Shown here: positions 19,596-28,620 of the stretch, in pieces
Layout: each line of letters opens with the position of its first letter
Position numbering within the stretch: position 1 is the first letter of the stretch
Source of the DNA: the human T2T-CHM13v2.0 reference genome, Homo sapiens
Reading direction: 5' to 3' (one strand)
DNA length: 64,000 bases
NCBI RefSeq assembly: GCF_009914755.1
Contig: NC_060941.1
Position numbers and translations under genes: made by a program
The notes under the pieces: generated by a model
Database searches by the model: none
What the model was told of the DNA's origin: nothing
The model's input: the letters and a program-made list of their open reading frames with translations, nothing else

Positions 19596-19675
19596 TCAGG
19601 GAGATTCTCCACTGTGAAGTCTCTGGTGTCTAATGAGGGCTGAACTACACGAAAGCTCTGCCACATTTATGTGAC
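19596..19675 (-). pseudogene. ZNF29P: Terminal C2H2 finger and stop codon of dead KRAB-ZNF gene
   Basis: Minus strand reads HKCGRAF-(frameshift)[17 protein letters not shown] (TGA at 19596-19598). It resembles the ZNF286A last finger [23 protein letters not shown]. Symbol is from memory of the locus. Confidence 0.8.
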
Positions 19676-19960
19676 AGAACTCATACCGGAGAAAAACCCT
19701 ACAAGTGTAAAGAATGTGGTGAAGCCTTCAGTCAGAGCTCAACTCTTACAAAACATATAAAAGTCTACACTGGAGAGAAACCCTACACCTGTAAAGACTG
19801 TAGGAAAGCCTTCAGCCAGAGTTCATCTCTTACCCAGCATCAGAGGGTTCATACTGGAAAGAAACCATTTGATTGTCAGGAGTGTGGGAAAGCCTTCAGT
19901 AGAAGCGCCCATGTTACCCAACATCAGAGGATCCACACTGGAGAGAAGCCCTGTGTATAT
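19676..19960 (+). pseudogene. ZNF29P: Three degenerate C2H2 fingers, inverted relative to the rest of the dead gene
   Basis: [95 protein letters not shown]. Symbol is from memory of the locus. Confidence 0.85.
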
Positions 19961-20090
19961 ACACATACGTATGTGTATGTATACATACGTATGTGTATAT
20001 ACACATACGTATATATACATGTGTATATACATATATATTTGCATATATAATATAAAAATATATATATTATATACTATACATATATATATA
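19952..20090. repeat. Compound (TA/CA/TG)n microsatellite with perfect palindromes
   Basis: Alternating purine-pyrimidine tract; 28-bp perfect palindrome at 19985-20012. Confidence 0.9.
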
Positions 20091-20314
20091 CTTTTTTTTG
20101 CAGATACTTGAATGTTTGTGTTCGTTAGAGTTCTAGGCTCTCTTGTAACTCTTTTTGTGCTCTTTGGGTGATATTATCCACTCCCATGGCTTCAATTTCA
20201 TCCATTCTCAGGCAACTCCCAAATCTGTACCCCCAGTTAAGATCTCTTTCCTTTACTAAGATACATTTGGCATGTCGTCCTTATATTCATCTAGCCTCCA
20301 GACATTACCACTTA

Positions 20315-20506
20315 GAGCAGGTTTTCTCAACTGCAGCACTGTTGCCGTTTTAGACAGACAAGTCTTTGTGTGGGGCCCCGTCCCGTGCATTGTAGGATGT
20401 TTAGCAGCATTCCTGGACTCCACTCACGAGATGCCCATAGCACACTTCAGACGTTGCCAAATGTCCCCCGGGGGGCAAACTTGCCCCTGGTTAAGAACCA
20501 CTGGTT
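20315..20506 (+). mobile_element. MER20 inserted in an L2 fragment
   Basis: CAGGTTTTCTCAAC...GTCCCGTGCATTGTAGGATGTTTAGCAGCA...GTTAAGAACCACTG. Confidence 0.85.
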
Positions 20507-20649
20507 TAGACTTATTATAGACACTTCAAACAACTTAAGAGAAACTGAACTCATCTTCCACTCCCTAAATTTGCTACTTCTCCTGTGTTTTCCATCTCAG
20601 GGAAGAGAACTTCCATTCACCTACACATCCAGACCAGAAACCTGAGAAT

Positions 20650-20956
20650 TTTTTCTTTTTTTTTTTTTTTTCTTGAGATGGAGTCTCGCTCTGTCACCCA
20701 GGCTGGAGTGCAATGGCATGATCTCGGCTCGCTGCAAGCCCCACCTCCTGGGGTTCACGCCATTCTCCTGCCTCAACCTCCCAAGTAGCTGGGACTACAG
20801 GCGCCCGCCACCACGCCCGGCTAATTTTTTGTATTTTTAGTACAGATGGGGTTTCACCATGTTAGCCAGGATGGTCTCCATCTCCTGACCTCGTGATCCG
20901 CCCGCCTCGGCCTCCCAAAGTGCTGGGATTATAGGCGTGAGCCACTGCGCCTGGCC
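20650..20956 (-). mobile_element. AluY
   Basis: Full dimer, TSD GAAACCTGAGAATTTT. Confidence 0.95.
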
Positions 20957-25104: not shown

Positions 25105-25193
25105 CTGGGACTCTGCTGTCCGGCAAAGAGCAGCCATATTTTCCTTCTTAAGATACCCCTTTTGGGAAAGGGCAGGGTCCTCAGAGGGCAGAA
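25105..25193 (-). pseudogene. TRIM16: 89-nt pre-KRAB exon of the dead ZNF gene (probable TRIM16 5'UTR exon)
   Basis: ttccag/...TCCCAG/gtgagt; reads (V)LPSEDPALSQKGYLKKENMAALCRTAESQ. Same length and phase as ZNF286A exon 45392-45480, with 54/89 nt identical ungapped (hand count). Confidence 0.88.
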
Positions 25194-27093
25194 CTGGAAG
25201 GAAATTGACATAAAGGAACCTGGTTTATCTTTATGTATCTCAAACCTATGAATTTAGAAACAGCCACTTATGAGAAAATGTGCCTCTGACCTTGGCTGTC
25301 CATAGCTTGAAGGATTTTACAGACATCTATGTAATGAGACTTCAAAGATAATCTCAGAGGATAGAATGAACATAAACTCAGGGAAAGGTATGACCATTAA
25401 CTGGGCTCAGGATCTGCGTGAGCCACTGCTCTGAAAACGAGGTTCCCTGGGACCAAAAAACCCTAAAACAAAACAAGAAGTGCAATGTTACAGTTGGAGA
25501 GGTGCTTAAAGACCTCCAGGCTCAACTCCTTTATTCGCAAATGGAGAAAGTGACCAATTTTGTAGAACAAGAAAAAGGGAGTCACAGCAGCAAAAGACAG
25601 CAGTGCCCACCCCAGCAGTCATGGTCACAGACACCTTTAGCCACCCCATCGTGAGTATTCCAGGCCCACGGTGAGTCTGTGGCCATCTCAGGCCTGTTAA
25701 CACCACACACGCTCCACTAAATTGTATGTGTCGTATCATTCACCACTGCATCCTAAGCACTGAGCACGGTGTACTTGGCAGACAGCAGTCCCTAAGTATT
25801 GTGAATGAATTAATGAATGAGCCCTAAATTCCCTTGGTCTGAATTCTATGCCCAACAAGCAACCTTCTGCTCATAATTTACTTCTCCATTTTGATTTTTT
25901 TGCCTGTAGGGAGAGAACTGCTGATGCTATTACCTTTGAGCATTTCTTTGCGCTTATCTCTAGGTAGTAGGGTTACATGCTATTTATCTTATTCTACATA
26001 TCATTCTATATTTTCCTAATATTTTACAGTTTATTATTTCTTCAATCCTCTCTCCACCCATCTCCAAAAAGCAGTACTTAAACCTCCTTGTGGATTTGTT
26101 TGGGGGAAGAAGTAGTTCTTTTAGGCCTCAGTTATTACCAAGTACAGGGTTTCACAATTTTGTAGAATTCATGCCTCCTGTAATCCTTTGTCATTGGAAC
26201 TCTGGCTCTGGAGTCTGCCTGCCTACTGCCTTTACATCCTGGCACTGTGTAACCATAGCCAAGTTTCTTCTGGGCTTCATTTCCTAATTTTACAAAAGAG
26301 AATAATAATGGTACCTACGTTGCTACAATGTGTGTTAATGCACATAAACGGCCCAAACCAGTACCTGGTACAGAATAAGCACTCAGGAAAGGTCATTTAA
26401 TCATCAGTTAATTATTATTCTCAATATTTTCTGCATATCAACATTAACCAAGACTTTATGGCGCTTTCTTTCTATACTTTGTTTTACGAGGAAAAAAAGG
26501 TATGATCAATATGTTTGGTCATACTCCCAAATCCCAACTTCCCCACAAGATGCCTGTCCCCTCCCTGTACTGGACACTGACAATCAGTCGGGGCTAAGGT
26601 AGAGTTAGGAACTCCTAAGTTCCAGGACTTCCAGAAATCAGAGGGCCTGAGGGCAGGATATTATAGGAAAGTCAAACAGACTAGAGATAGACTATGGAAG
26701 TCCCTTCTAATTTGGGGGATCCCTTTGTATCTCCTTAAGAGAAAGCGCTTTTTAAGAGAAAACTGAAAGAGAACCAAGGAGCAGTCTCTAATTCTGCCAG
26801 AAATGAGCAGCAGGGCCATGGACCCTGGGGACGCAGGCCCCAGCTCTAGCCCTGAGCTCATAGAGGTTCAAGGGACTAGGGCTCTCCCATGTGCTATAAT
26901 GCCAAATCAAATCATCAGCCTCTCCATACCTATTTCTTTCTTCTCTTCCAAGGAGTCCGACTTATCCCCCCTTATCCTTCAGAAAGGCAGGTGGTATAAT
27001 GGAAAGAGTACGGAAGTAAGGTATCTTCTTTTTTCAGAGTTTCAAATTAAAAGGGAATATTAGTAAAATCACCACTATTCTTCGCACACTCAC

Positions 27094-27191
27094 CACGCAC
27101 CAGGTGCTTTCCATAAATCAGTATTCACAGATGAGGAAACTGTTAACTTGCCCAAGTTCTCTGTGCTGCCCACACACATTTTACAAGGTTG
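27094..27191 (-). other. TRIM16: Candidate MIR-derived 5'UTR exon
   Basis: tttttctttacag acceptor, G/GTGAGT donor; contains the MIR core CAGATGAGGAAACTG..AACTTGCCCAAG. Confidence 0.55.
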
Positions 27192-27275
27192 CTGTAAAGA
27201 AAAACTAAAATGAGGTTGTGTGTGCATACTGCAGATTCTTGGCTAATGGCAGGACCCTTTATTTCTATTTCTTAC

Positions 27276-27397
27276 CTCTGTTCTGGAGTTTGCAGGTCCA
27301 ATCCTCCATAATCATAGCCTTTGCTTCACTATTTGGGTGTAGCAACCTTTCCGTTCTCCACGTATCTTCCTGGAAATTGCCAGCATTCTACCAGAAA
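27276..27397 (-). other. TRIM16: ATG-bearing exon of the dead ZNF gene / TRIM16 5'UTR exon (acceptor uncertain: 27369, 27387 or 27397)
   Basis: tgattATGGAGGATTGGACCTGCAAACTCCAGAACAGAG/gtaaga: 34 coding nt, phase 1. Compare ZNF286A tgatcATGGAG...GAG/gtgaga (37 nt, phase 1). Confidence 0.7.
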
Positions 27398-28179
27398 CTG
27401 TGGTAAGAGGTTCTGGATTGAAGTTTTCCCCTTTTTCATTGTATTTCTTTTTTCATTCTCTGAGACTCTACTCAGAACGCAGAGTCTGACGCAGTATCTT
27501 TTGAGCTAAAGCTAAACTCAAGAACTTCGGCAGCCATTTAATCTTCAGGAAGCCCTGAACACAGGCAAGTCTCAGTACCTTTATACCACTAGGGCCCTGC
27601 AGAGTCAGACACTGGGAACATAGACAGTTACAGACAACAGTAAGGATACTGTGCCTGATGAATACAAAAGTGCAGGGTGGTGGAAAGTGCCCTGCTGGGA
27701 GTGCCTGGATTCTAATTTCCACTATGTGCTAGTTGGCTGGGTGACCTACAACAAGCTACTTTTCATTCTTGGGTGTTTCCTTCTTACGTGCAAATGGGCA
27801 GATGGATGCCTACTATTAATAAAAGCAACAACTGATTGATCCCTTACTTGGTGTCTGGCCCTGTGTCAACTGTTGCATGTCAAAATTCCATTTAATCCTC
27901 ACAACCACCACTTAATAGTAGGTACAACAAACCTCAAATTACAGGTAAAGAACACGAGACACAGAGAGTAACCTGCCTACGCTCACATCAGAGCAATACC
28001 ACTCTCTGAAAATGTGGATAAACAGATCTCTGATATCCATCCCCTCCTACGTTCACACTTCAGTCTATGAAACGGTTCCACCACACTGCAGGCTGCAGAG
28101 ACATAAGGGACGCGTTGGTGCCTAACCTGGCCCTGGTACAGGAGCCTTGGGCGCTACCTGCCTCACTTTGCAACCAAAT

Positions 28180-28620
28180 GCTCCAGGGTATGCGGGCCCT
28201 CAGCCGGTTTCCAAGCAAACGACCCGGAGGTGTCTCGGATAAGAAACACACATACACCCCACTCCCACACGCACAAAACCCAAAGACACGCTCCAGGGGC
28301 AGAGGGGGCGCGTCAAGGTGGCCGAACCATAGCTCCAGCAGAAGGAATTACAGTCAGATCAGCGGGCCCGGGGAGAGACCCAAAAGGGAGCAGCCGGGAC
28401 CCCAAGTCTGACAATCCACTGCTGAACACACACACCCTGTCCAGCGTCTGCTCCTCCCCGGTCCAGACACAGAGAGGGTGTCTGCTCTGGGGGACAGGGA
28501 GGACACAGACTCGCCACGCGCGGAGATCCTCCAGAGAAAGGGGCCGGAAACGGAAGTGCGCGCCGAGGCTCCTGGGAAATGTAGTCCGGAGCGGCCCGGG
28601 CGACAGAGCGAGATTCTCTC
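28180..28620 (-). promoter_or_regulatory. TRIM16: CpG-rich promoter / first exon (TRIM16 promoter)
   Basis: CpG cluster; tandem ETS sites CCGGAAACGGAAGTG at 28544-28558; ZNF143/THAP11 motif GACTACATTTCCCAGGAGCC at 28567-28586. Gene identity is from known gene order next to ZNF286A. Confidence 0.8.

What the first reader, a model, noticed from the sequence alone, without database searches (positions are those of the whole stretch)
19596..28620. A dead head-to-head ZNF286A paralogue appears to supply the promoter and 5' leader exons of TRIM16
Seen: the minus-strand exons behind the 28.5-kb CpG promoter match ZNF286A one for one. ATG exon: tgattATGGAG..GAG/gt, 34 nt vs 37 nt, both phase 1. Pre-KRAB exon: 89 nt in both, 54/89 identical, both ending S-Q. 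KRAB-A: 126 nt with a 1-nt deletion after FT. KRAB-B: TAG at the position of the usual consensus Gln, phase-1 donor. The terminal finger resembles the ZNF286A last finger. The coding frame is dead, but every splice site is intact. Known: TRIM16 lies on the opposite strand next to ZNF286A and has a multi-exon 5'UTR. Inference: after the ZF exon was wrecked, the KRAB-B donor was left to splice onward into TRIM16. That would be promoter and exon capture from a KZFP pseudogene.
Basis: partly seen in the sequence, partly recalled or inferred. Interest (0 to 1): 0.9.

Follow-up and report, generated by a model that had tools for sequence, protein, structure and literature searches.

The report
TRIM16 leader is a dead zinc-finger gene
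The promoter and non-coding leader exons of human TRIM16 are what is left of a neighbouring KRAB zinc-finger gene that is still whole in at least one other species, a tidy case of one gene running on the front end of a dead one.

Summary
Four TRIM16 5' exons on the minus strand are the ATG, pre-KRAB, KRAB-A and KRAB-B exons of a former KRAB zinc-finger gene. Pfam KRAB hits both frames around a 1-nt deletion (1.7e-15 and 3.2e-4), and KRAB-B carries a TAG. All splice sites are intact.

New here:
- An unnamed 669-aa protein (P0138) is the intact orthologue. Its N-terminus matches these exons and its last four fingers match ZNF29P (80/93) and then the minus-strand terminal half-finger (22/31), in one line.
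- KRAB exons and ZNF29P are therefore one gene. Its finger exon was inverted and mostly deleted, which explains why ZNF29P is annotated on the + strand.
- Both coding lesions are young. They are absent from gibbon and baboon predicted proteins and shared with the TRIM16L copy.
- The only CpG island serving TRIM16 is at 28.2-28.8 kb; there is none at its first coding exon.
- The leader carries 13 uATGs. Predicted isoforms start at the old zinc-finger ATG.

Not shown: that ZNF286A is the closest paralogue (fingers 67%, tree unresolved, AU p 0.815), and the order of wreck and capture. Transcript evidence is annotation only.

This is a new member of a known kind. Interest is moderate.

The parts
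28200..28799 (.). CpG island around the TRIM16 transcription start. Inferred to be the former promoter of the zinc-finger gene.
   Evidence: 400-bp windows have GC 0.56-0.62 and CpG obs/exp 0.68-0.83. It is the only such island between window -21200 and 32900.
28436..28551 (-). TRIM16 exon 1, non-coding, 116 nt
   Evidence: RefSeq table given with the finding. GT donor present. No homology test was possible.
27276..27397 (-). Former ATG exon of the zinc-finger gene. ATG at 27309, 34 nt to a phase-1 donor.
   Evidence: Its translation matches baboon P0126 at 27/28 and the P0138 N-terminus.
27094..27191 (-). Extra 98-nt leader exon, not part of the old gene. It shifts the frame, so the old ATG opens only a 14-16 codon uORF.
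   Evidence: It has no counterpart in ZNF286A, P0138 or the primate KRAB proteins. uORFs. Its only other genomic copy is on the TRIM16L side.
25105..25193 (-). Pre-KRAB exon, 89 nt, open frame of 30 codons
   Evidence: 54/89 ungapped identity to the ZNF286A exon, z 14.9. 63% identical to the same stretch of P0138. It is translated in primate predicted proteins.
21797..21943 (-). KRAB-A exon with a 1-nt deletion between 21884 and 21883
   Evidence: Pfam PF01352 at 1.7e-15 and 3.2e-4 in two frames. 27/29 identical to P0138.
21398..21502 (-). KRAB-B exon with TAG at 21467-21465 and a cag/tag double acceptor. Its donor joins to the first coding exon of TRIM16.
   Evidence: 22/34 to P0138. No Pfam hit. 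The join is from the RefSeq table.
19955..20085 (.). TA/TG-rich simple repeat at the far breakpoint of the inversion
   Evidence: Sequence read. Homology to P0138 stops at 19954.
19676..19954 (+). Inverted piece of the old finger exon: three full fingers and a linker. This is ZNF29P.
   Evidence: 80/93 identical to P0138 residues 539-631. Pfam zf-C2H2 7.9e-22 and zf-H2C2_2 1.4e-26 for 19640-19951.
19596..19655 (-). Terminal half-finger and stop codon of the old gene, still in the original orientation
   Evidence: 22/31 to P0138 residues 640-668, continuing past the human stop to 19563. 13/20 to the ZNF286A C-terminus with stops aligned.
3024..3098 (-). Alternative exon with AG/GT sites, used in a human partial TRIM16 protein between the pre-KRAB exon and the coiled-coil exon
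   Evidence: P0128 residues 23-47 match at 25/25. Splice sites.

Best explanation
A KRAB zinc-finger gene once lay on the minus strand directly upstream of TRIM16, transcribed divergently from ZNF286A.

In the lineage leading to human its last exon (linker plus fingers) was destroyed:
- About 280 bp holding three fingers was inverted.
- Eight codons at the junction were lost.
- Everything upstream in that exon (about 420 codons in the intact orthologue) was deleted.

The old CpG-island promoter, first exon, ATG exon, pre-KRAB exon, KRAB-A exon and KRAB-B exon kept their splice signals. Transcripts starting there now run on, and the KRAB-B donor joins the acceptor of TRIM16's first coding exon about 25 kb downstream. 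Human TRIM16 is thus driven by the old zinc-finger promoter and carries a 677-nt-plus leader made mostly of ex-coding exons.

The KRAB reading frame then drifted. It is still open in gibbon and baboon. In human it is broken by a 1-nt deletion and a CAG-to-TAG change that predate the TRIM16/TRIM16L duplication.

Shown: gene identity, lesions, inversion, orthologue, absence of a proximal CpG island.
From annotation only: exon joins.
Inferred: order of events, and that this is the main promoter in vivo.
For: - KRAB HMM hits in two frames. Splice sites are intact.
- P0138 (669 aa; KRAB 1.7e-25 plus fingers) matches the human ATG, pre-KRAB, KRAB-A and KRAB-B exons and the baboon protein over the same exons (71% identity, query residues 17-142). 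It matches ZNF29P at 80/93 in register, against 59-65% out of register, then the minus-strand terminal half-finger at 22/31.
- No human locus matches the P0138 finger array above 71% among the 150 matches listed, so the human gene is a unitary loss.
- Relic orthologues form one clade, support 98/99.
- Predicted proteins from gibbon (P0123) and baboon (P0126) carry a complete KRAB domain (6.7e-24 and 3.7e-23).
- Predicted TRIM16 isoforms of human, gorilla, orang-utan, siamang and snub-nosed monkey start at the old ATG and join the pre-KRAB exon. In four of these five they join it directly and in frame to the TRIM16 coiled-coil exon; the gorilla record (P0122) reads other residues in between.
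- P0129 joins KRAB-B to an acceptor at 19954 and reads the antisense of the inverted fingers (39/43). The inversion is therefore shared with that record, which resembles the baboon sequence.
- The TRIM16L-side copy (98% identical) shares the deletion, the TAG and the inversion.
- There is no CpG-island-like window within 17 kb either side of the TRIM16 start codon at -4169.
Against: - No transcript, CAGE or expression data were available here. Exon joins come from the supplied RefSeq table and from computer-predicted proteins.
- A CpG-poor proximal promoter for TRIM16 cannot be excluded from sequence.
- Exon 1 and the promoter could not be shown to be homologous to anything, so their origin from the zinc-finger gene is inferred from position.
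- Where the intact orthologue (P0138) lies relative to TRIM16 in its own genome is unknown, because the record has no name or context.
- Pfam does not recognise the KRAB-B exon.
Confidence: 0.85

Rival explanations
1. Capture came first. Read-through transcripts from the intact zinc-finger gene into TRIM16 already existed, and the finger exon was lost afterwards because it was no longer needed or by chance. The end state is the same but the order is reversed.
For: - The neighbouring ZNF286A has an annotated read-through into TBC1D26 in this same window (table supplied with the finding), so such chimeras arise while the upstream gene is intact.
- The tail of P0137, a member of the non-primate side of the relic clade, matches human 5536-5610 (15/25, E 0.001) and 2641-2694 (10/18). 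Both lie beyond the finger relic towards TRIM16.
Against: - The P0137 matches are weak, and the human stretches lack clear splice sites.
- P0138 shows that at least one species still splices KRAB-B to a finger exon.
Confidence: 0.3
2. The long leader is a minor or annotation-driven form. TRIM16 is mainly transcribed from a CpG-poor promoter near its first coding exon, and the old zinc-finger exons are merely a transcribed pseudogene that sometimes reads through.
For: - In mouse, 1.3 kb upstream of the Trim16 start was treated as its promoter and drove a reporter (PMC3547790, passages seen).
- A RefSeq enhancer element lies at 3683-4185 (supplied table).
Against: - The selected RefSeq transcript, and every alternative exon listed in the window, belong to the 28.5-kb start (supplied table).
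- CpG obs/exp is about 0.2 around the first coding exon.
- Predicted isoforms in five primates use these exons.
Confidence: 0.12
3. The KRAB exons are not just a leader. In gibbons and Old World monkeys they still encode a working KRAB-only protein of 126-145 aa from the same transcripts, and this function was lost only in great apes.
For: Open frames with a complete KRAB domain are found in P0123 and P0126, although the finger exon appears already inverted in a record close to baboon (P0129).
Against: - Amino-acid differences across the frame are 11/122 for human-gibbon, 15/123 for human-baboon and 16/126 for gibbon-baboon. From recalled primate DNA divergences, that is about what unconstrained sequence would give.
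- The two models end by reading into the intron after the KRAB-B donor.
Confidence: 0.1

Closest known systems
P0138-type KRAB zinc-finger protein (unnamed 669-aa record; relatives P0137, P0148, P0153, P0159, P0191)
   Same: - Same start, pre-KRAB exon, KRAB-A and KRAB-B.
- The last four fingers are collinear with ZNF29P plus the terminal half-finger.
- One clade with the primate sequences.
   Different: - P0138 is intact, with a 230-residue linker and about 11 fingers.
- Human keeps 3.5 fingers inverted plus half a finger.
- Human has lost the linker and has two lesions in KRAB.
ZNF286A (neighbour, divergent orientation, 15.4 kb between starts)
   Same: - Same exon plan: phase-1 ATG exon, 89-nt pre-KRAB exon ending Ser-Gln, KRAB-A, KRAB-B, one finger exon.
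- The C-terminal finger and stop align at 13/20.
   Different: - The ZNF286A KRAB-A lacks 12 nt that the relic retains.
- Fingers are only 67% identical.
- No 3'UTR similarity.
- Not resolved as sister.
- The exon plan is shared by many other KZFPs.
Read-through (conjoined) genes such as ZNF286A-TBC1D26 in this window
   Same: An upstream gene's exons are spliced to a downstream same-strand gene, skipping or truncating the upstream terminal exon (supplied table).
   Different: Here the upstream partner is dead. The chimera is the standard form of the downstream gene rather than an NMD side product.
Unitary (unprocessed, non-duplicated) pseudogenes
   Same: - Introns are kept.
- No intact human copy.
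- An intact orthologue exists elsewhere.
   Different: Its promoter and 5' exons stay in use as part of another gene.

Membership tests
KRAB zinc-finger gene (relic) | KRAB-A box recognised by Pfam PF01352 | tested here: met
   1.7e-15 (profile 14-41) and 3.2e-4 (profile 2-19) in two frames. The first is well above the 20.4-bit cut-off and the second just above it.
KRAB zinc-finger gene (relic) | KRAB-B exon following KRAB-A | tested here: inconclusive
   No Pfam hit for the 34-aa exon. However, it matches the same exon of P0138 at 22/34, and the ..SKP..IS.LE.. motif is present.
KRAB zinc-finger gene (relic) | Tandem C2H2 fingers joined by TGEKP-type linkers in one 3' exon | tested here: met
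   zf-C2H2 7.9e-22 and zf-H2C2_2 1.4e-26 on 19640-19951 (+). They lie on the opposite strand to the KRAB exons.
KRAB zinc-finger gene (relic) | Uninterrupted reading frame | tested here: not met
   1-nt deletion, TAG, and an inverted, truncated finger exon. It is a pseudogene in human.
Unitary pseudogene | Intact orthologue elsewhere and no intact copy in the same genome | tested here: met
   P0138. The best human finger matches to P0138 are 64-71%. The only other copy is the equally broken TRIM16L-side duplicate.
Promoter and exon capture by read-through splicing | Mature transcripts joining upstream-gene exons to downstream-gene coding exons | not testable with these tools
   Taken from the supplied RefSeq table. 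It is consistent with predicted proteins P0121, P0124, P0125 and P0127. No RNA data were at hand.
Promoter and exon capture by read-through splicing | Same strand, tandem order, upstream terminal exon bypassed | tested here: met
   All exons are on the minus strand. The finger relic lies inside the intron between 21398 and the first coding exon at about -3800/-4169.
Closest paralogue of ZNF286A | Greater similarity to ZNF286A than to other KZFPs | tested here: inconclusive
   - Fingers: 67% against up to 72% elsewhere.
- Pre-KRAB HMM built from relic orthologues: ZNF286A 9.1 bits, P0229 15.5, P0094 9.8.
- Tree unresolved; AU p 0.815 for a joint clade.
- Only 54 rows were sampled.

The most novel reading that the evidence does not exclude
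In catarrhine primates TRIM16 lost its own transcriptional control and now depends wholly on the promoter of a dead KRAB zinc-finger gene.

- The ex-coding leader, with 13 upstream ATGs, acts as a translational gate on this stress-response ligase.
- The old zinc-finger start codon is used to make TRIM16 proteins without B-boxes that carry a 41-residue N-terminus of zinc-finger-gene origin.
- In gibbons and Old World monkeys the same transcripts may still yield a KRAB-only protein.
Probability: 0.25. Interest if true: 0.65.

Novelty: new member of a known kind. Interest (0 to 1): 0.5.

Why it matters
TRIM16 is studied in autophagy, oxidative stress and cancer, and its 'promoter' is cited in methylation and transcription-factor work (PMC12913158, passages seen).

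If the human promoter sits 32.7 kb upstream of the start codon and is of zinc-finger-gene origin, three things follow:
- Human and mouse promoter studies are not comparable.
- The leader's 13 uATGs are likely to limit or regulate translation.
- The isoforms that start at the old ATG need testing.

It also joins two database entries (ZNF29P and the TRIM16 5' exons) into one former gene, and it explains why ZNF29P is annotated on the opposite strand. For zinc-finger gene evolution it is a dated example of gene death by an inversion inside the last exon, with the front end reused.

Tried and rejected
- Whole-genome searches with the 29-aa pre-KRAB peptides found only the exact copies. They were too insensitive to count this exon type in human.
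- Searching upstream of ZNF287 and ZNF624 found their KRAB-A and KRAB-B exons but no pre-KRAB exon at E up to 1.
- Finger-based search of the big protein database was swamped by long multi-finger proteins, with the best identity at 70%.
- Word-based search for full-length proteins with the baboon N-terminus gave only 4 primate TRIM16 isoforms. The orthologue appeared only in the exhaustive HMMER search.
- The genome-wide KRAB-A search showed that the domain is too uniform to rank relatives.
- The ESM Atlas gave only generic zinc-finger clusters.
- The 3'UTR comparison with ZNF286A scored below the shuffles.
- No relic of the P0138 linker was found in 19955-21397.
- The 98-nt exon looks like an old MIR repeat to me from memory, but the genome search found only its duplicate, so this is untested.
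- Literature: seven searches listed no paper on the origin of the TRIM16 leader. The terms 'trim16' + 'krab' + 'pseudogene' gave 0 papers. Subscription journals are not covered.

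
Full report
**The observation**

The window is human chr17. The six TRIM16 leader exons in the supplied RefSeq table all have AG acceptors and GT donors.

- Exon 27276-27397 holds an ATG at 27309, 34 nt before a phase-1 donor. ZNF286A has 37 nt, also phase 1.
- Exon 25105-25193 and ZNF286A exon 45392-45480 are both 89 nt. 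They are 54/89 identical ungapped and score z 14.9 against shuffles.
- Exon 21797-21943 is a KRAB-A exon. Pfam KRAB matches 21798-21881 at 1.7e-15 and the upstream frame at 3.2e-4. That fixes a 1-nt deletion after ..NFT.
- Exon 21398-21502 reads as KRAB-B with a TAG at 21467-21465. Pfam does not recognise it.
- The CpG island is real: 28200-28799.

**The finger exon**

A scan for finger motifs found them on the + strand at 19640-19951, which is where ZNF29P is annotated, not on the strand of the KRAB exons. Only a terminal half-finger with its stop lies on the minus strand, at 19655-19596. It matches the ZNF286A C-terminus at 13/20.

**Relatives**

A word-based search with the pre-KRAB exon returned 8 proteins.
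- Two are KRAB-only predictions from gibbon (P0123, 126 aa) and baboon (P0126, 145 aa). In both, the whole frame is open: no deletion, and Gln where human has TAG. Pfam KRAB scores them 6.7e-24 and 3.7e-23.
- Six are TRIM16 records from human (two partial records), gorilla, orang-utan, siamang and snub-nosed monkey that include the pre-KRAB exon. Five of them begin at the old ATG; the sixth (human P0128) is a fragment that begins inside the pre-KRAB exon. Four of those five join the pre-KRAB exon directly, in frame, to the TRIM16 coiled-coil exon; the gorilla record (P0122) reads other residues in between.

An exhaustive HMMER search with P0126 then found P0138. This is an unnamed 669-aa protein with a KRAB domain and a full finger array.
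- Its first 118 residues match the baboon protein over the same exons at 71% identity, and its N-terminal exons match the human exons.
- Its residues 539-631 match the human + strand 19676-19954 at 80/93, against 59-65% in other registers.
- Its residues 640-668 match the human minus strand 19655-19563 at 22/31.
- The eight residues between these two matches are missing in human.

So the KRAB exons and ZNF29P were one gene. In human a roughly 280-bp piece of its last exon is inverted. The linker and upstream fingers (P0138 residues 119-538) have no relic in 19955-21397. A TA/TG simple repeat sits at the far breakpoint.

No human locus matches the P0138 fingers above 71% among the 150 matches listed, so there is no intact human copy.

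**Dating**

- The TRIM16L-side duplicate (98% identical over 2.6 kb) shares the deletion, the TAG and the inversion. All three therefore predate that duplication.
- Copies of the ATG exon, the 98-nt exon and the pre-KRAB exon lie beside it, and the ZNF286B copy of the ZNF286A exon lies 20 kb away on the other strand. The whole head-to-head block was duplicated.
- P0129 is an unnamed record closest to the baboon sequence. It joins KRAB-B to an acceptor at 19954 and reads the antisense of the inverted fingers at 39/43. The inversion is therefore older than the two coding lesions.
- Across the frame, human differs from gibbon at 11/122 residues and from baboon at 15/123. Against primate DNA divergences that I recall rather than measured, this looks unconstrained.

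**TRIM16 itself**

I fetched 30 kb beyond the window and mapped the coding exons.
- The start codon is at window -4169.
- The six exons outside the window in the RefSeq transcript equal the six coding exons, so the KRAB-B donor joins directly to the first coding exon.
- CpG obs/exp around that exon is about 0.2. No island-like window lies between -21200 and 28200.
- The 677-nt leader holds 13 ATGs. Because the 98-nt exon shifts the frame, the old start opens only a 14-16 codon uORF.
- A mouse study treated the 1.3 kb upstream of the Trim16 start as its promoter (PMC3547790, passages only). This is a lead that the distal promoter is not ancestral. It is not a test.

**Is it a ZNF286A paralogue?**

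The shared exon plan is real but not exclusive.
- An HMM of the relic orthologues' pre-KRAB exon also finds it in P0229 (15.5 bits), ZNF286A (9.1), a SCAN-KRAB protein (P0219), a ZNF287 orthologue (P0105) and marsupial rows.
- ZNF29P fingers are 67% identical to ZNF286A, but 72% to a chr19 locus.
- The ZNF286A KRAB-A lacks 12 nt that the relic keeps.
- The 3'UTRs are unrelated.

For the tree I used 54 N-terminal segments. These are the stored proteins with exactly one KRAB-A motif, at least 34 residues before it and a segment of at least 100 residues; all others were dropped. The seven relic sequences form a clade (98/99). ZNF286A falls in an unresolved polytomy beside it. Forcing ZNF286A into the clade is not rejected (AU p 0.815). 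The narrow claim is open.

**Verdict**

Human TRIM16 runs on the promoter and 5' exons of a unitary KRAB zinc-finger pseudogene whose finger exon was inverted and truncated. The kind of event is known: read-through capture and pseudogene reuse. This instance is not in the papers I could search. The order of events and the in-vivo weight of the distal promoter remain to be tested with RNA data and other genomes.

Noticed in passing
window 19640-19951 (+) against the ZNF29P annotation 19700-19867 (+): ZNF29P covers only part of the finger relic. The + strand open frame is 137 aa, and a further half-finger lies on the other strand. From memory, ZNF29 was first a cDNA clone. A transcript like P0129, which reads through the inverted fingers, could explain that.
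   Followed up: partly
G000 C17:18645637-18653598 (loci L001, L004, L008): The whole relic (ATG, 98-nt, pre-KRAB, KRAB-A and KRAB-B exons plus the inverted fingers) is duplicated upstream of the TRIM16L side at 97-100% identity, mirrored, with the ZNF286B exon on the opposite strand. TRIM16L probably uses the copied promoter.
   Followed up: partly
window 50626-50740: The ZNF286A KRAB-A exon is 115 nt. It lacks 12 nt (four residues of the ..LYRDVM.. region) that the relic, ZNF624 and ZNF287 retain. This is an unusual shortened KRAB-A in an intact gene.
   Followed up: no
window 27094-27191 (-): This 98-nt TRIM16 leader exon is absent from the zinc-finger orthologues. From memory it resembles the core of a MIR repeat. 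The genome search found only its duplicate.
   Followed up: partly
window 27360-27277 (-): The baboon and snub-nosed monkey proteins start 18 codons further upstream in the ATG exon. Human has ACG where their start codon would be.
   Followed up: no
locus L019-L020, G000 C17 about 16557900-16558600: A second, degenerate KRAB-A/KRAB-B pair with stop codons lies about 21 kb upstream of the ZNF624 KRAB exons, on the opposite strand. It may be another KRAB relic.
   Followed up: no
window 5536-5610 and 2641-2694 (-): The non-KRAB tail of P0137 weakly matches these two stretches in the long TRIM16 intron (15/25 and 10/18). They may be leader exons used in another species.
   Followed up: partly
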